Shown here one piece after another: positions 2,998-64,000 of a stretch of DNA of 64,000 bases; position 1 is the first letter of the stretch, and each line of letters begins with the position of its first letter. The DNA comes from Eledone cirrhosa. Its lineage: Eukaryota. The DNA lies in contig OZ024750.1 of assembly GCA_964016885.1 (NCBI GenBank), forward strand, positions 44,268,001-44,332,000, given 5' to 3'. The notes below the pieces were generated by a model. It saw only the letters and a list, made by a program, of their open reading frames with translations, had not been told where the DNA came from and ran no database searches. The position numbers and the translations under genes were made by a program.

Positions 2998-3214
2998 CTG
3001 TAGAAGCCTTTCTATATTATATATATATATATATATATAAATATAGTATTGTCATGTAACTCCTTATTGAACTGTAGTAGCAACGTATTGACATGGTGTG
3101 TTTCTAGGGCAATTTTTAATAAGTCTGGTGCAGACGATTCCTCTCTAAGTTTGAATACACCAGATTTTAGACTCATCAGATGAATGAAACAATTGTTAAT
3201 ACTGTAAATAAACA

Positions 3215-3218: not shown

Positions 3219-3310
<92 letters not shown>

Positions 3311-4684: not shown

Positions 4685-5036
4685 AAAAAGATGAAATCGA
4701 AAATGCAACTGGAGTCTTATTTAAAAATATATATATATATTTATTTGGTTCGTTTACCGGTTTCGCAGTTCTTCTGCTTTTCAAAAGTAGAGTTGAGATG
4801 GAGGGTTTGTGGTTTTTCTCACATCTGATATGAAAAAACCACAGACCCTCCATCTCGACTCTACTTTTGAATAGCAGAAGAACTGCGAAACCGGTAAAGG
4901 AACCAAATAAATATATATATTTTTTTAATAATAAGACTCCAGTTGCATTTTCGATTTCATCTTTTTTTCTTTATACTTTCACTCGTGTAGGACACCTCGG
5001 TTATTTTTCATTTTGTAAATAAACCTCACTTTCTAA
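4681..5036 (+). mobile_element. Family F fold-back element with variant-core hammerhead
   Basis: Inverted arms of ~140 bp centred near 4826, then a tail to 5036. Homologue at 6777-7338. Confidence 0.8.
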
Positions 5037-14382: not shown

Positions 14383-14494
14383 GTATATATATATATACAT
14401 ATTTACTAAAATAACAGATGAAAGTGTATCAAAGAAATGATGCTTTCACCCTTAACGGGATCTTCTGAAACTATCAAATATATATATATATATA

Positions 14495-19084: not shown

Positions 19085-19336
19085 ATAACGCGTGATGATG
19101 CTCCACCTTCCAGTGATTGTGTGAATATTCAAATGACTCACTTGTAAATCAACCAATCAGATTGTTCGCTTACAACTTCTCGGCTGCGAGAGCTGATTGT
19201 GAGTCGTCGTTGTGTGTACGGTGGTTGATGTAGTTAGTTTAGTTCAGCTCTGACTACAGAGAAAGCCAGAGTAAAAACTCGTGACAATTACAGGTCGTTT
19301 TTATCTGTTGTCCGAGTATAATTGAGAAAACAAAAC
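19085..19336 (+). promoter_or_regulatory. FoxQ2 proximal promoter/5' UTR
   Basis: Unique, CpG-containing island between repeats and the ATG. AP-1 site TGACTCA at 19134-19140, NF-Y box AACCAATCAG at 19151-19160, Inr-like TTAGTT at about 19234-19244. Confidence 0.55.
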
Positions 19337-20743
19337 ATGTGCAGCAACAATCCTGGCTCGATGATTCCATATGGTCTGAAGGTTCCTAATTTATCGCCGT
19401 ACATGCCACTGGGTACAGCACTCACCCAGCTCCCTTTAGATTTCCACCGGGCTCAGCTGTACGATTATAATGCCCGGCTGCAGTACGGTATCCGCAGCCA
19501 CCCAACTACGCTAGGGCTGAGCCCTTATGCCCACACTATGGATACTCTCGGTCACCCATATGTATTCAAGCAGGACTTACGAGCTCGTTACATACACGAA
19601 GAACCGAAACCGAGTCACAGCTACATCGGACTTATCGCCATGGCTATATTAAATTCCAAAGAGAAGAAGCTTGTTCTAAGTGACATATATCAATGGATAT
19701 TGGACAATTACCCCTACTTCCGTACTCGCGGACCTGGCTGGAGAAATAGCATCCGACACAATTTATCGTTAAACGATTGCTTCATCAAAGCTGGACGCAG
19801 TGCCAACGGAAAGGGCCACTACTGGGCCATACATCCGGCCAATGTTGAAGATTTCAATAAGGGTGATTTTCGTCGCCGACGTGCTCAGAGACGGGTTCGA
19901 AAACATATGGGATTGTCTGTACCAGATGACGAGGACAGCCCTAGCCCGTCTCCGACCAGCGCAGCACCTATCCCCAAATGGCCGGATTCTGCCCCAGTTG
20001 TTGGAATCGATGAGACAAAAGAAAGCGCCGACAACGTTGATACTACCTCACCTGGAAATTTCTCACCCGTCGTTGGGGACAGTAGTCCCATCGCAGTGAC
20101 AAGGGAAACGAAATCGTGTTCCCCGGTCACTACGTCAGAAACACCGTGCGTGAAGAAAAGACTCTTTGATATGGAAAGTTTGCTAGCCCCTGAGACCAAA
20201 AGACGAACTTGTACATCTTTTACAAAAGATGACTTTTCACGAACTGTTGATATGATTAATGATCGTGAATCAAATAATAACAGCATAAACAACAGCCAGA
20301 CTAGTCCAGGAAAAGGACCAGATGTGCGGGACTTTACAGATAAGATTATAGGTAAATGCGATCCACAAAACGCAATTATCAGTATAGCAAACAGCCAGCG
20401 CCTGAGCGATCTGCACAATGTTGGATTATTGTCTGCGGCCGAAAGTCTGAAAGCCTCTGCAGAACATATTGGACTTCACTCGAAACTTAGTGGTTGCGGT
20501 GGAGGTGATATGCTGACCCCTAAAGCTGAAACGGGATACGTCAGTGCCTTTCACAGTATGCTACCTTCGACGTGGGGGGCCTTATCCTCCTACGCCTACC
20601 CAATAATGGGTGGAAGTCACTATTCAATAACAGTCCCTGTAACCACCTTCTCGAGTCCGGCGAAAAAGTGGCCTCCAGGTTTTACCGATATTGCACATCA
20701 CCGGCGCCACAGTCCCGACAAAGAGGTACAGGTGGACGTTTGA
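19337..20743 (+). CDS. FoxQ2: Forkhead box transcription factor, FoxQ2 (fd102C-like), single coding exon, 468 aa
   Basis: Forkhead domain EEPKPSHSYIGLIAMAIL..LSDIYQWILDNYPYFRTRGPGWRNSIRHNLSLNDCFIKAGRSANGKGHYWAIHPANVEDFNKGDFRRRRAQRRVRKHMGL (about 19600-19915), which I recognise as FoxQ2/fd102C. EH1-like FDMESLL at 20165-20185. First ATG is in context caaaacATG; the ORF track starts earlier at a TTG. Confidence 0.93.
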   Translation: MCSNNPGSMIPYGLKVPNLSPYMPLGTALTQLPLDFHRAQLYDYNARLQYGIRSHPTTLGLSPYAHTMDTLGHPYVFKQDLRARYIHEEPKPSHSYIGLIAMAILNSKEKKLVLSDIYQWILDNYPYFRTRGPGWRNSIRHNLSLNDCFIKAGRSANGKGHYWAIHPANVEDFNKGDFRRRRAQRRVRKHMGLSVPDDEDSPSPSPTSAAPIPKWPDSAPVVGIDETKESADNVDTTSPGNFSPVVGDSSPIAVTRETKSCSPVTTSETPCVKKRLFDMESLLAPETKRRTCTSFTKDDFSRTVDMINDRESNNNSINNSQTSPGKGPDVRDFTDKIIGKCDPQNAIISIANSQRLSDLHNVGLLSAAESLKASAEHIGLHSKLSGCGGGDMLTPKAETGYVSAFHSMLPSTWGALSSYAYPIMGGSHYSITVPVTTFSSPAKKWPPGFTDIAHHRRHSPDKEVQVDV

Positions 20744-40378: not shown

Positions 40379-40713
40379 TATATATATATATACTTAAACA
40401 TGTATGTGTACATACATACATATATGCCGATGTTTCTGTGTGCCTGCGTCTGTGTGTCTATACGTAATGTTTTAGATACTTGTACACACGTTATATATAT
40501 ATACAACGTGTGTACAAGTATCTAAAAAATTACTTATAGACATATATATATATATATATAGTGTATATATATATGATATAAATAAGTGGTTTATGTGTAT
40601 ATATTTGCTTATAAATATAAAAAATATATATAAATATATGGGAAAATATTTAAAGTTGTTATATAACAGCCTGATACATATTTAATTGGAGTTGTTTAAC
40701 TGAAATATATATA

Positions 40714-40915
40714 GTAGTAATAATAAATGCGAAGACTAAATTCCAAAGAGGGCTCGATAAAGATAAATATATATCAAATATATAAGAACCGTAAAGCAAA
40801 TATTTATTAAAATAACAGATTAAAGTTTAAGCAAAGAATCGCTGCTTTCACCCTTAAGATCCCATTAAGGATGAAAGCAGCGATTCTTTGCTTAAACTTT
40901 AATCTGTTATTTTAA
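40714..40915 (-). mobile_element. Family J: fold-back copy of the 3' terminus of the Penelope-like element at 61804
   Basis: 40714-40858 closely matches 61805-61945, followed by an inverted arm. Confidence 0.85.
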
Positions 40916-41707
40916 TATATATGTGTGTGTGTGTATATTAATATATAAATATTTTCTGATGAGTTGGTAAAAAAATTTTTAAAATGACTAAAGATATTTA
41001 TAATTTTTCAGTTTACAAAGAAATACGTGAATTTGACATGATTACATGTACACATACACAATGTGTAAACTTACACATTTACGCAGTCTCGTATCTCTTT
41101 GTACTGTATATATACAGAATATATATATATTATATAAATATATATAACTGGCCACATGCTGCCGGCCCTCTCTAAGTATTAACGAAACTATTTAATGATT
41201 GTATAATGATTTCTTTCATCATCGTAATCATCATCATCATCATCACTATCCTTCTTATCATCATCATCATCATCATCATCATTATCATTATCAGAAATAT
41301 TAGAGTATACACTAATCGCCGTTACTATGACATAAGCCGGTACTAAGTGATATATCATAATCATCATTGTAGTCAAATACTTATATGTCTACCAGACTAC
41401 ATCTTGTTGTTATTAACTAGATGTTTCTACGAGATAACTAGGACTGCTAGAAATAACAGTCAAATTCCTTCCAGTATATCCTAACAAAATATTTTCTCAT
41501 ATTAATCAAAACGGGATGGTCATTATGGAATGTCTCTAGTCATAGGTCTGCTTAGCTAAGGCAGATCTAGTGGATAATCTGCAACAACCTCTTTTTGAAC
41601 AAATTTAAAGGGATGTTCAAATGTGGTCCTTCGACCTGTTAGAAATAACAGTCAAATATACCTCTCAAACCACACTGCTGAGTCGGATAAAATCAACGAG
41701 CAATTTA

Positions 41708-49803: not shown

Positions 49804-49859
<56 letters not shown>

Positions 49860-49862
<3 letters not shown>

Positions 49863-50008
49863 ATAATAATAAATTTGAAGACTAAAATCCAAAGAAGGCT
49901 CGATAAGGATAAATATATATCAAATATATAAGAACCGTTATAGTTTCAGAAGATCCCGTTCAGGGTGAAAGCAGCGATTCTTTGCTTAAACTTTAATCTG
50001 TTATTTAA

Positions 50009-50012
<4 letters not shown>
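49860..50012 (-). mobile_element. Family J fold-back fragment
   Basis: Tail matches 61805-61878, and the inverted segment matches 61890-61962. Confidence 0.8.
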
Positions 50013-50039
<27 letters not shown>

Positions 50040-50043
<4 letters not shown>

Positions 50044-50350
50044 ATCAAAAGATCGTTAAATGAGTTCCATGTATTTTTTTATGCGCATTTCAAAAACAAA
50101 TATCATTATGCAATAACATTTGTGTTTTCATCAGATACAATATGAGGACATGATCATTTTATCTGATGAAAACACAAATGTTATTGCATGATGATATTTG
50201 TTTTTGAAATGCGCATAATAAAATACATGGAACTCATTTAACCATCTTTTGATCTTATATATTATATATACTCCAGTCCTACAAATTGTAGAGTGCTTCT
50301 TATCCGATATCTGCATTGCTTTATTGTACTACAATAAAACTCACCTCCTA
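50040..50350 (+). mobile_element. Family C fold-back element; hammerhead 50156-50224
   Basis: attttat-CTGATGA-aaacacaaatgt..atatttgttttt-GAAA-tgcgca-TA-ataaaat, with a mirror copy in the left arm. Tail with GAGTGCT at 50291. Confidence 0.85.
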
Positions 50351-60894: not shown

Positions 60895-61611
60895 TAGTCG
60901 CATATATGCGACGTTATAGTCGCATATATGTTATAGAATGCCGTTAGCTTCTTGCTAAAACAATCTCTATACCTCTCATTTATATTTATACTCGGATTCT
61001 TTTCCTAGAGTGCTTAAACTATCTGTGACTAATCCCGGTTTTTTTCATAAAAACTGTGATAATTATTGCTATTTTGCTGAACTCCTTTGTAGAGTTTTTT
61101 TCAGAATGTATTTGACTGCTATTTCTTGTAAATAAACATTCACTTCCATCCTGACGTCACTAGCCCCGTTTTTTCCTCATGTGCTTTTTCATAAATACAC
61201 ATGAAGGCGAACTAGCCAGTTTTAGAATTCCCTTTTTCGGATTATATTACTGTGAGAGCCCTGGTTTTCTGTTGAGCTCTGCTGATGATTGAAATTCCAA
61301 CCGTGACCATCTCCACTGAAAGTTTTCATGAAATAGTCTTTTAAGACTATACAGAGCATTTGATGTTATTCCAAATTGAAGGATAAGTGTTTCAAACTTT
61401 ATTTTATCATGAGTTAAAGGTCTATAGATTTTCCCTGGATTTTACTAAATTCTGTGGATGAATTTATATCCTGATTCTCTTTTGAGATGAGTTTGAGTTA
61501 TTTTTCCTAAATCTTTCGTTAACTACTTTTCCCATCTTGACGTTATAGTCGCATATATGTTATAGAATGCCGTTAGCTTCTTGCTAAAACAATCTCTATA
61601 CCTCTCATTTA
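60895..61611 (+). mobile_element. Family H non-coding element with 72-bp direct terminal repeats
   Basis: gacgttatagtcgcatatatg..tacctctcattta at 60910 and 61539. Short 5' fold-back gtcgcatatatgcgac, GAGTGCT at 61008, and an inverted relative at 60769-60818. Confidence 0.7.
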
Positions 61612-61762
61612 TATATATATATATATTTTTTTTTTGATCATGTGAATGCCAATATTTATTAATATTCTGAAGAAATATTAATAGTTCCAGAAAATCTAGC
61701 TGTTGAGTGCTTCTAATCTATTGTAAAACTATATTCATTGATTAATCAATGAATATAGTTTT

Positions 61763-61803
<41 letters not shown>

Positions 61804-61807
<4 letters not shown>

Positions 61808-64000
61808 TTAATAATAAAATTGAAGACTAAAATCCAGAGGGCTCGATAAGGAAAATATATATCAAATATATAAGAACCGAAGAGCAAATATTTATTAAAA
61901 TAACAGATTAAAGTTTAAGCAAAGAATCGCTGCTTTCACCCTTAACGGGATCTTCTGAAACTAACAAAGTCAATCTGTAAACGCAGAACTGGATATTTCA
62001 AAAACCGTTGCAACCGGAGGAAGACAGGAAGACGATACTTTGGTTCATGGTGACGTTCGCTGGCAAAGAACGGGAAAAAACGAATAATACGTCATTAATA
62101 GGAGCGGTGAAAAACAATTACGTGCAAGGACAGAACCACGTTTATGGTATAAAAGCGGTCGTAGACTAATGTTCTCTAAGTGGTGCATAGAGACGTTCTC
62201 TGGCAATGAACGAAAAAACGAAGATAATAAGTCATATGTGGAGCGTGGAGAACAATAGCGTGCAAAGACAAAACCACGTAAATGTTATAGCAGAAGTCGT
62301 AGACTAAAATTCTAACTAGGAGACCGAATGAATCTCCGCTACAGAGTTAAGAATAAAGTAAATAAATACAATACAGAAGTAATAGGAACAAATAAATACA
62401 TACACGCAAACAGATACGTACATACACAAGCATACGCAAAACCTTACCATAGGTATACAAAACCACGCACATATAAATATGTGTATGTGTGTATGCCTGT
62501 GTACAAATAAATAAATAATTATATAAACGTATATAAGTAAATAAATACGTATATAACAAACGCACACACATACCTACAAATAAATACATGAAGGTTCGGA
62601 GACGTAAGTCAACTAAAACGAGAAGTACACATATACACCCACCCACCATACGTACGAACCTGCATACTCACGCAGACGCGAAACTCCCATATACACATAG
62701 CCAAGCCCTAAATACCAGAATATGTAAAAATTATACGCCAAAACAGTCAAATATACGTACGAGAAGGTATACATACCTTCACAAAACATACGGGTAATAT
62801 ATACTTACCTATGCAAAAAGTAAAGGAATAAACAAAACATATACTTAGCTCCCACATCAAGACGTAAATATCCACGTATAGATCGTGCTATCCGTTACGG
62901 TATAACGTAGGGCTGTAATACAGGAAAGTTTTGTGCAATTTATGTTTACAAGCCGAAATTGCCTCAGATTTTTTGTTTAAGATGTGGTCTGTGGCGTAGA
63001 GTATTTCCAGGGCCTCAGCGGCGCAGAGGTCACATGGTCTTTTATTTCCGTTATACGATCTAGCCCTAGCTAGGATCTCCCAGTGTAACTTATATTGGGT
63101 GTGGTTGTCTTTTAGACTCCAGATATAAGCTGAAAGTGACGTCATATTCCTTCTTAGAGGGTAACGAAAAGAATGGGTATGCATGTAAAGACGCTGCTTG
63201 AAACTATTGGCGGTTAACCCTATGTAGGCCCTACGGGACGTGGGTGTTACAACCTTACATTTGTAGACAATGTTACTAGAGAGGCATTTCCCGGATAGGG
63301 GACAATCAGCCCGATTCCTACAATTACAGTTAGTACTAACTACAGGGTTGCACGTGTTCCTACGGCTAGGTATTTTAGCTAAATTTGAAGCTGTGATGTT
63401 ATGTGCAAGGTTAGGAGTCGTTGAGTAAGAAATTTTAATAGTGTTTCTATTAAAAATTTTACTATATTTATGTGTAGGGGGAAAATGCTTCCTAAATTGG
63501 AAAGAAAGATCTTAGCTAATGGTGTGGCCACCTCCATATTATATGGTGGGTTAAACCAACAAATGCGACGGGATCTATTTCTTCTAGGTCTATTCTCGTA
63601 CTCTGTATATGCTACCTTATCGACAAATCCACTTCGAGCAAGAGCTTCATTGTAATAAGTGGAATGGTCGTTGAAAATGCGCTCGTTGCTGGAAAGACGG
63701 GAAAGCCTCAACGAAACGTTTTTTACCAGATTCTTGGTTATGCTGGCAGGACGGTTGGAATGCTTACTTATGTAATTAAGCGTATCATTCGGCTTTCTAT
63801 ACGGGTAATGCAACCCATTCAATAAATTGAGGGTAACGTCGAGGTAATTAACGACTGAGAGATTGGCCTCAACCTGTATAGAGAGGTTGAAGCCTTTAAA
63901 GAAGGCTGTGAGTTCTTTTCTGAATCTGTCGCAAGCACGAGGTCCGCACTTAGTCATGGTCAAAAGGCCATCGTCACGGTACAAACCACCGCCCGCGTTG
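61804..64000 (-). mobile_element. Penelope-like retroelement (Naiad-like), 3' portion; continues beyond the window
   Basis: RT C-terminus and GIY-YIG coding region, then an ~1.08-kb 3' UTR ending in (TA)n at about 61803. The terminus is shared with the family J hairpins. Confidence 0.88.
62888..64000 (-). pseudogene. PLE reverse transcriptase-GIY-YIG ORF with a 1-nt frameshift near 63495
   Basis: Frame 1: YRDDGL..VNYLDVTLNL..PYRKPN..WFNPPY. After the shift: KHFPPTHKYSKIFNRNTIKISYS..CNCRNRADCPLSGKCLSSNIVYKCKV..AYIGLTANSFKQRLYMH..LSAYIWSLK..CDLCAAE..LNKKSE..CKH, with stop at 62888. Confidence 0.88.

What the first reader, a model, noticed from the sequence alone, without database searches (positions are those of the whole stretch)
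61804..61965. The autonomous Naiad-like PLE is the parent of one hairpin family
Seen: the last ~160 nt of the PLE (minus strand, ending in (TA)n) reappear as fold-back inserts at 40714-40915 and 49860-50012 and as a fragment at 14430-14475. This links the hairpin architecture to an RT-GIY-YIG element inside the window. The terminus holds a hammerhead-like box CAGAAGA-tccc(gttaa)gggt-GAAA, with A in place of U4 in three copies and no clean stems I/III. It may be a variant or a dead ribozyme.
Basis: partly seen in the sequence, partly recalled or inferred. Interest (0 to 1): 0.7.

Follow-up and report, generated by a model that had tools for sequence, protein, structure and literature searches.

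The report
Hydra retroelement with altered hammerhead core
This is the end of a very abundant jumping gene whose self-cutting RNA motif has one core letter changed in almost all of its tens of thousands of copies, likely crippling it, and the short hairpins nearby are stunted sister copies whose ends suggest that two DNA copies are made from a capped RNA and then joined head to head.

Summary
The sequence link is real, but three labels are wrong. The element is a Hydra-clade Penelope-like element (C-terminal GIY-YIG, RWR, DKT, CxCx5C, no CCHH), not Naiad. The window copy is 5'-truncated and frameshifted, and it lacks letters that the short inserts share, so it is a sibling, not the parent. Only 40713-40916 folds back; 49859-50016 is a non-overlapping inversion and 14399-14478 a single arm. 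The motif is a complete type I hammerhead (61912-61962, stems I-III present) with A at position 4: 26,598 A4 matches against 137 U4 and 72 C4, and A4 in an older subfamily too. Copies end at two fixed sites, A (61804; 14,483 junctions) and B (61888; 22,664), and head-to-head pairs are mostly one A arm plus one B arm. 5' ends pile up at stem I/core (24 of 72 arms at risk), often with an extra G before 61962, and not at the cleavage site. Best reading: two cDNAs are primed at A and B on sense RNA, some of it capped at stem I, and are then end-joined; the ribozyme is probably weak and dispensable. Cleavage and the start site are untested.

The parts
61804..64000 (-). 5'-truncated Hydra-clade PLE copy (A arm); continues to window-equivalent about 64080, where it joins an inverted piece of about 20 nt that begins at site B and then (TA)n
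   Evidence: 98.4-98.6% identical to other copies
63382..64000 (-). RT remnant (YRDDG motif and thumb), first frame
62888..63511 (-). Linker and C-terminal GIY-YIG endonuclease, second frame after a 1-nt deletion near 63495
63302..63328 (-). CxCx5C linker motif typical of the Hydra clade
   Evidence: translation; definition; count
61804..62887 (-). 3' UTR of about 1.08 kb, with an imperfect tandem duplication of about 135 nt (62041-62313, 78%); its last few hundred bases form the pLTR in tandem copies
61912..61962 (-). Type I hammerhead motif with stems I, II and III; core CAGAAGA with A4 at 61956; canonical cut would fall between 61917 and 61916
61953..61968 (-). Hotspot of 5' ends; 61962 (first base of stem I) is the inferred RNA 5' end, often preceded by an extra G; 61956 is the centre of a TTC-A-GAA micro-palindrome used at 828 exact fold-back junctions
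61888..61888 (-). Site B, the inner fixed 3' end (inferred RT start site)
   Evidence: 22,664 junctions to (TA)n
61804..61887 (-). 'Tail' between site B and site A (84 nt in this copy); site A at 61804 is the outer fixed 3' end
   Evidence: 14,483 junctions to (TA)n
40713..40916 (.). Short insertion in (TA)n: A arm 40713-40857 plus inverted B arm 40856-40916; the arms overlap, so this one is a true fold-back
49859..50016 (.). Short insertion in (TA)n: A arm 49859-49937 (tail only) plus inverted B arm 49941-50016 that starts at the base of stem I; no overlap, not a hairpin
14399..14478 (-). Single, more decayed B arm (89%) in (TA)n

Best explanation
61804-61965 is the 3' end of a high-copy Hydra-clade Penelope-like retrotransposon, and the short inserts are sister copies with two fixed ends, likely made when two cDNAs primed at two start sites on sense RNA are joined head to head; its hammerhead carries a family-wide U4-to-A change that probably cripples cutting. 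Shown: clade motifs; the two fixed 3' ends A and B; A+B pairing at head-to-head junctions; (TA)n targets; A4 in about 99% of copies and in an older subfamily; 5' ends piled at stem I/core with an excess of G before 61962; no pile-up at the cleavage site. Inferred: the RT/endonuclease nicks both strands of (TA)n, one 3'-OH primes at A and the other at B; each cDNA stops early or runs off the RNA 5' end; the two cDNA 3' ends are joined with little or no microhomology, or through the TTC-A-GAA palindrome. Overlapping arms give a hairpin, non-overlapping arms an inversion, and loss of one arm a solo fragment. Also inferred: part of the template pool is capped RNA that starts at the first base of stem I, so priming in the 5' leader gives complete cDNAs of only about 75 and 160 nt; cleavage is not needed for transposition.
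For: Clade: a natural copy has an unbroken ORF of 708 aa from the first Met, with RWR, DKT, YRDDG, CxCx5C, GIY-YIG without the two cysteines, CxxC..E and CxH, the features that Craig et al. give for Hydra. 4 of 7 metagenome relatives (38-41% identity) carry a hammerhead that differs at two stem II letters from the published Hydra-1_aMil motif (compared by eye). Two ends: 22,664 B and 14,483 A junctions to (TA)n (exact patterns, lower bounds), against 663 matches to a 20-mer near the ORF start. In 40 regions taken in genome order, 36 alignments end at unit 3150-3155 and 25 at 3239, of 75 alignments. Of 73 head-to-head junctions, 49 are A+B, 4 are A+A, none is B+B, and 20 have an arm broken off elsewhere. 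In the B-anchored sample, 34 of 39 detected partners end at A. Sites A and B share the motif AT|TTG(G)CTC. Two RT start sites that delimit the tail, and extension of both strands, were shown in vitro for a Poseidon element (PMC11167929). A4: 26,598 A, 137 T, 72 C; 35 of 36 older-subfamily hits have A. 21 of 25 sampled hits of a looser U4 pattern (965 hits) are fold-back junctions centred on position 4, not a U4 subfamily. All 26 Hydra rows in the published table have U4. In a pairwise mutant scan of another hammerhead all CUGA changes except the C3:G8 swap had low activity (PMC9901934). With A4 an alternative UUUCA/UGAAA helix has pair probability 0.72, against 0.06 in a natural U4 copy. 5' ends: 24 of 72 B arms at risk stop in 61953-61968, against 1 of 48 in the next 16 nt (Fisher p 1.6e-5), and 1 of 84 stops within 2 nt of the cut site. 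G before 61962: 2,071 matches against 949 for A; 29 of 30 G hits and 15 of 20 A hits are junctions; the G:A ratio is about 8 times that expected from partner-arm composition; 5 of 6 junctions at that base have G against 6 of 37 elsewhere (p 0.0025); in 13 of 20 G hits with an adjacent partner the partner does not template the G. Two sampled junctions (L279/L280, L293/L294) carry the G on both arms. Untemplated 5' G is read as a copied cap in L1 and SVA (PMC4859970).
Against: No RNA data: no RNA holder was listed, so start site, cap and cleavage are all untested. The 5 direct tandem junctions found have 5' pLTRs starting at unit 3190, 3171, 3042, 2916 and 2781; none starts at 3078 (= 61962) and three extend upstream of it, so full-length tandems need a longer, circular or jumped template. 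0 of 30 G-junction arms run on into the ORF leader. Only 6 of the 24 hotspot ends are exactly at 3078; the others spread over 3072-3087, partly from palindrome use. 7 of 20 G's could come from the partner arm. Stems I-III and the other core letters are unchanged between subfamilies about 81-89% alike over the aligned stretches, while loops differ, which fits continued selection on the fold. A natural U4C viroid hammerhead keeps enough activity in vivo, and the Poseidon hammerhead needs protein to cut. The folding gap is small (hammerhead fold -5.5 against MFE -8.8 kcal/mol with A4 and -7.8 with U4). The samples come from the first 40 Mb or so of one contig, and about 11 long B arms were lost at an indel against my reference. 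No tree against labelled clade references was built.
Confidence: 0.68

Rival explanations
1. Same insertion mechanism, but A4 is a working natural core variant: the ribozyme cuts, probably helped by the element's protein or a partner RNA, and makes circular monomers that template the tandem copies.
For: All other core letters and three helices are kept across subfamilies while loops change. Helix III is 5 bp and could fold as a monomer. 5' pLTRs of variable length that pass 61962 fit rolling-circle copying (model in PMC4209133). Natural core variants with low activity exist.
Against: No 5' ends at the cut site (1 of 84), although circularisation would hide them. CUGA mutants are low in activity. 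A4 favours a competing helix. Hammerhead mutants did not affect insertion in vitro.
Confidence: 0.25
2. The 5'-end hotspot is an RT stall at a structured or protein-bound site, or is tied to an intron 3' end there, and the extra G is a non-templated base; there is no capped start at 61962. A4 might be kept because it makes a TTTCAG splice acceptor.
For: A pyrimidine tract followed by two AG dinucleotides lies at 61975-61955 (sequence). In D. virilis Penelope the intron ends at the 5' end of helix I. Ends spread over 16 nt.
Against: No spliced copy among 90 B arms, though PLEs keep introns. Nothing beyond the single G is shared upstream among 30 G junctions. G is specific to position 3078. The context TTAGTT, and TCAGTT in 3 of 4 continuous older copies, resembles an initiator (consensus recalled).
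Confidence: 0.2
3. The head-to-head structures come from self-priming on an antisense transcript, as proposed for rotifer Penelope elements, or from snap-back of one cDNA at a palindrome.
For: Proposed in PMC3846280. 828 exact junctions at one palindrome could be snap-back events.
Against: 15 of 37 A-partnered junctions have non-overlapping arms, which snap-back cannot give. The two arms end at different fixed sites. Extra G occurs on either arm or both.
Confidence: 0.1
4. One reading: an autonomous Naiad-like copy in the window gave rise to a separately amplified hairpin (MITE-like) family.
For: 93-97% identity between terminus and inserts.
Against: C-terminal endonuclease and Hydra motifs; window copy truncated and frameshifted; inserts carry letters of another subfamily; junctions differ from insert to insert.
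Confidence: 0.02

Closest known systems
Hydra clade of C-terminal EN+ Penelope-like elements (Craig et al. 2021, PMC8557442; read: part 1 of 10, section 11, passages, supplement part 2 and found rows)
   Same: Single ORF of about 700 aa, RW[K/R], DKT, CxCx5C linker, GIY-YIG without CCHH, CxxC/CxH, (TA)n target, type I hammerhead near the 3' end with an extra U on each side of stem II, inverted 5'-truncated copy, tail on one end.
   Different: Unit about 3.24 kb with a 1.08-kb 3' UTR (published families are generally under 3 kb). Core A4 instead of U4 (26 of 26 published rows have U4). C16.2/G15.2 with a 5-bp helix III and 7-nt loop, instead of G16.2/C15.2 with a tiny palindromic loop. Tail 84-87 nt instead of 30-40. 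The hammerhead differs from Hydra-1_Obim, so this is another family.
Poseidon PAc of Anolis (Frangieh et al. 2024, PMC11167929; read: parts 1-2 of 4)
   Same: Two RT start sites bound the tail, AT-rich targets, both strands extended, hammerhead cleavage not needed in vitro, no RNA ends at the cut site.
   Different: Other clade. There the start sites lie inside the ORF start; here site A lies about 40 nt before the first Met. I saw nothing in the parts read on head-to-head A+B joining or on a capped 5' end at helix I.
PLE minimal hammerheads (Cervera and de la Pena 2014, PMC4209133; read: parts 1-2 of 4)
   Same: Type I motif in the pLTR, extra nucleotide between 9 and 10.1, many solo copies, pairs on opposite strands.
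   Different: The core variant reported there is U3-A8; no U4A in the parts read. Helix III here is not palindromic.
L1 twin priming and cap-derived 5' G (Hancks and Kazazian 2016, PMC4859970; passages)
   Same: Two primings on target strands give an inversion; an extra 5' G marks a copied cap.
   Different: In L1 the second priming site is variable; here it is one fixed site, and arms often overlap.
Naiad clade (PMC8557442)
   Same: (TA)n preference, tandem and inverted insertions.
   Different: Naiads have an N-terminal endonuclease with CCHH, DKA and no canonical hammerhead; none of this applies here.

Membership tests
Hydra-clade PLE | Single ORF with RT followed by a C-terminal GIY-YIG | tested here: met
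   708-aa ORF in L034, YRDDG at 345, YIG at 597. Pfam gave no hit; the domains are called from motifs.
Hydra-clade PLE | RWK and DKT motifs | tested here: met
   RWR at 36, DKT at 114; RW[KR] in 118 and DK[TS] in 120 of the 120 best homologues
Hydra-clade PLE | CxCx5C linker; no CCHH; CxxC and CxH around the conserved E and N | tested here: met
   no cysteine pair of the CCHH type between IVY and YIG (one C directly after IVYK)
Hydra-clade PLE | Insertion into (TA)n | tested here: met
Hydra-clade PLE | Canonical hammerhead near the 3' end | tested here: inconclusive
   Position and fold as in Hydra, but the core has A4
Hydra-clade PLE | RT phylogeny within Hydra | not tested
   No labelled reference proteins were available as tool sequences. 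Indirect support: relatives carry the Hydra-1_aMil-type hammerhead, and the published Hydra proteins match motif by motif by eye.
Naiad PLE | N-terminal GIY-YIG with CCHH, CxC before the RT, DKA | tested here: not met
Type I hammerhead ribozyme | Three helices around the core, closing in stem I | tested here: met
   the descriptor gave 1 hit on the reversed window as control
Type I hammerhead ribozyme | CUGANGA and GAAA core, NUH site | tested here: not met
   U4 is A in 26,598 of 26,807 counted matches (G4 not counted); GAAA and CUU are intact. Rfam gave no hammerhead hit.
Type I hammerhead ribozyme | Site-specific self-cleavage | not testable with these tools
   Indirect only: no 5' ends at the cut site
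Autonomous element (window copy) | Complete, unbroken ORF | tested here: not met
MITE-like hairpin family | One fixed structure amplified as a unit | tested here: not met
   Junctions vary; the commonest exact one (828 copies) recurs in young and old subfamilies

The most novel reading that the evidence does not exclude
A Penelope-like family amplified to tens of thousands of copies after losing hammerhead catalysis, keeping the fold as a promoter or RT landmark: transcription starts at the first base of stem I, and the genome's junctions record cap-copying on both cDNAs, showing that the head-to-head inversions of PLEs come from two sense-templated cDNAs primed at two fixed sites and joined at their 3' ends.
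Probability: 0.4. Interest if true: 0.72.

Novelty: new variant of a known kind. Interest (0 to 1): 0.52.

Why it matters
Two questions on PLEs are stated as open in the papers read: what the hammerhead is for (PMC8557442 asks whether it merely parasitises PLEs) and how the head-to-head inverted copies arise (PMC3846280 argues for an antisense template). This family offers a natural test of both, with more than 20,000 junctions to count. If A4 is dead, cleavage is dispensable in vivo in a clade said always to have canonical hammerheads; if it cuts, it is a core variant I did not find in print and one that standard CUGANGA searches and Rfam miss. The clade, the tail and the inverted copy are themselves known, so without these two points the finding is an ordinary repeat.

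Tried and rejected
Rfam scan of 61700-62400: no hammerhead hit to E 10. Pfam scan of the 708-aa ORF: 0 families. Sequencing runs: no RNA holder listed; laying contigs of four runs showed site B as a loose end in 142 contigs of X1 but cannot show RNA ends. A U4 subfamily was sought: the 965 hits looked like one, but 21 of 25 sampled are palindrome junctions; the other 4 were two different junctions and two solo arms. The 137 strict U4 hits are near the level of the C4 control (72); 10 were inspected and are scattered copies of both ages. 5' ends at the canonical cut site: not found. Spliced copies: none among 90. A 5' pLTR starting at the inferred start site: none of 5. Literature: searches for U4A, for CAGAUGA/CAGAAGA-type cores, for PLE dimers and variants, for PLE start site and cap and for octopus PLEs showed no U4A PLE hammerhead and no cap-G at PLE junctions. 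Lunse et al. 2017 on PLE hammerhead variants and a review of hammerhead mutant data were not held, and Figures 5, S6 and S7 of PMC3088659 could not be seen, so U4A may be in print there. Earlier scan findings: nothing by sequence or by the first word set. No tree was built, for lack of labelled references.

Full report
1. Observation. The terminus at 61804-61965 has five strong matches elsewhere in the window, forming three inserts. 40713-40916 is an arm from 61804 to 61945 joined to an inverted arm from 61954 to about 61890; the arms overlap, so it folds back. 49859-50016 joins 61804-61879 to an inverted 61963-61888; the arms do not overlap. 14399-14478 is a single arm, 61888-61968. All lie in (TA)n. 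The box CAGAAGA...GAAA is in three copies, but it has clean helices: stem I AGUUU/AAACU, stem II CCC/GGG, stem III AGCAG/UUGCU, triplet CUU.

2. The element. The window is G000:C10:44268001-44332000 in a 3.0-Gb animal genome; a cephalopod is my hunch and was not tested. The neighbouring stretch shows that the window copy starts inside the RT, about 80 bases beyond the window, behind (TA)n and an inverted piece of about 20 nt that begins at 61888. It has a 1-nt deletion near 63495. It cannot encode the enzyme. Among 20 extended loci, L034 has the full layout: inverted pLTR, direct pLTR, unbroken ORF of 708 aa from the first Met, 3' UTR of 1.08 kb, (TA)n. The protein has RWR, DKT, YRDDG, CxCx5C, a C-terminal GIY-YIG without the CCHH cysteines, CxxC..E and CxH. 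These are the Hydra features of Craig et al.; Naiads have the endonuclease in front and lack a canonical hammerhead. 116-120 of the 120 best homologues share RW[KR], DK[TS], the linker and the CxxC/CxH motifs. Four of seven metagenome relatives carry a motif nearly identical to the published Hydra-1_aMil hammerhead. No tree was built.

3. Parent or sibling. But the two short inserts share a T insertion and a CCAAAGA spelling that the window copy lacks (among fetched loci 83 with and 70 without the T, overlaps not removed). They come from another subfamily.

4. Two fixed ends. Exact patterns give 14,483 junctions of site A (61804) and 22,664 of site B (61888) to (TA)n, and 663 matches near the ORF start. 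Of 73 head-to-head junctions in four samples, 49 are A+B, 4 are A+A, 0 are B+B, and 20 have an arm broken off elsewhere (best-hit 22 of 32, U4-selected 17 of 27, genome-order 8 of 12, window 2 of 2 A+B). In the first 90 B-end hits, 39 had a detectable inverted partner and 34 of these end at A; 22 overlap (hairpin) and 15 do not. Both sites read AT|TTG(G)CTC. A tail on one of two inverted ends is a known PLE feature, and for a Poseidon element it was shown to lie between two RT start sites, with both target strands extended. I infer one cDNA from each site and end-joining of their 3' ends. Overlaps at junctions are mostly 0-7 nt.

5. The core change. AGTTTC-A-GAAGATCCC occurs 26,598 times, the T form 137 and the C form 72 times. 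An older subfamily with other loop letters has A in 35 of 36 hits. A looser U4 pattern gave 965 hits, but 21 of 25 sampled are fold-backs at the palindrome TTC-A-GAA, where one strand must read CTGA; this exact junction occurs 828 times. All 26 Hydra rows of the published table have U4. Other families in this window keep U4. Mutant data on another hammerhead show low activity for CUGA changes (passage), natural variants with low activity exist, and U4C suffices in a viroid. With A4 a helix that traps the core has pair probability 0.72 against 0.06 in natural U4 copy L055. Only 1 of 84 arms ends at the cut site. Against a dead motif, helices and other core letters are conserved between subfamilies. 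I put 'crippled' at about 0.65.

6. The 5'-end hotspot. 24 of 72 B arms at risk stop in 61953-61968, against 1 of 48 in the next 16 nt (p 1.6e-5). Genome-wide, G precedes 61962 in 2,071 cases and A in 949, where the element has T; 29 of 30 G cases are junctions. The G:A ratio is about eight times what the partner arm would supply, G is specific to this position (5 of 6 against 6 of 37), and in 13 of 20 partnered cases the partner does not template it. In the older subfamily 7 of 13 junctions at this base have G. Two sampled junctions have G on both arms. An untemplated 5' G is taken as a copied cap in L1 and SVA. Penelope has an internal promoter in its pLTR (passages). So some templates probably start, capped, at the first base of stem I, and priming at B and A in this leader gives complete cDNAs of about 75 and 160 nt, the size of the window inserts. 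This does not explain full-length tandems: none of five 5' pLTRs starts there and three extend further upstream, so longer, circular or jumped templates must exist as well. A stall or an intron end at this site is the main rival.

7. Comparison and verdict. Clade, (TA)n targeting, pLTR hammerhead, tail and inverted copy are known. I did not find in print a PLE family with fixed U4A, nor cap-type G at PLE junctions (searches); one key paper on PLE hammerhead variants and some figures were not available. Papers seen: PMC8557442 (part 1, section 11, passages, supplement part 2 and found rows), PMC4209133 and PMC11167929 (parts 1-2 of 4), the 2026 retrozyme preprint (part 1 of 5), PMC3088659 (section 8, passages), and passages only of PMC6765202, PMC3846280, PMC2377424, PMC13282606, PMC4859970, PMC9901934 and PMC8969392. 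The initiator consensus and the forkhead label are recalled. Verdict: a new variant of a known kind; interest 0.52.

Noticed in passing
window 2105/2221, 3639, 7919, 9520, 15122, 34847, 55030, 55388, 55875: Several other repeats with canonical CUGA hammerheads, some in head-to-head pairs; probably ends of other PLE families.
   Followed up: partly
window 6883 and 7167; related copies at 4776, 4875, 6946, 7017: Hammerhead-like motif with core TTGAAAA(G), stems I-III intact and a palindromic helix III, in a tandem and inverted array of about 70-nt units; looks like a U3 core variant.
   Followed up: partly
L157, L166, L168, L236, L270 (also L124); unit position 3031 = window about 62009: 5 of 90 B arms share one 5' junction, GTGT next to (TA)n, and several share the same downstream sequence that contains part of the tail in the opposite direction: a likely non-autonomous derivative with its own amplification.
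   Followed up: partly
L041, L048, L112, L233, L242: Long arms that stop at unit positions 1-46, just after site A of the leader, without a 5' pLTR; may mark a second RNA end or a stall at site A.
   Followed up: no
L101, L111, L115, L116, L120, L121; window 49937: A arms often stop within about 30 nt of site B, as expected if both primings use one RNA molecule.
   Followed up: partly
window 61955-61975: Pyrimidine tract and two AG dinucleotides at the start of the hammerhead; A4 creates TTTCAG, a possible splice acceptor.
   Followed up: partly
window 19322-20743 (+): 473-codon open frame with a forkhead-like domain (label recalled, not searched).
   Followed up: no
window 61718-61769 and about 50041-50240: Near-perfect hairpins of other sequences directly beside the PLE end and beside the 49859 insert; Rfam miRNA matches there are far below threshold.
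   Followed up: no
window about 60912-60992 and 61541-61612: Direct repeat of about 75 nt flanking a 550-nt stretch next to the PLE; the same sequence appears beside a B arm in L166. Probably another repeat family.
   Followed up: no
L061: Array of four hammerhead arms joined head to head and tail to tail, two of them with U4.
   Followed up: no
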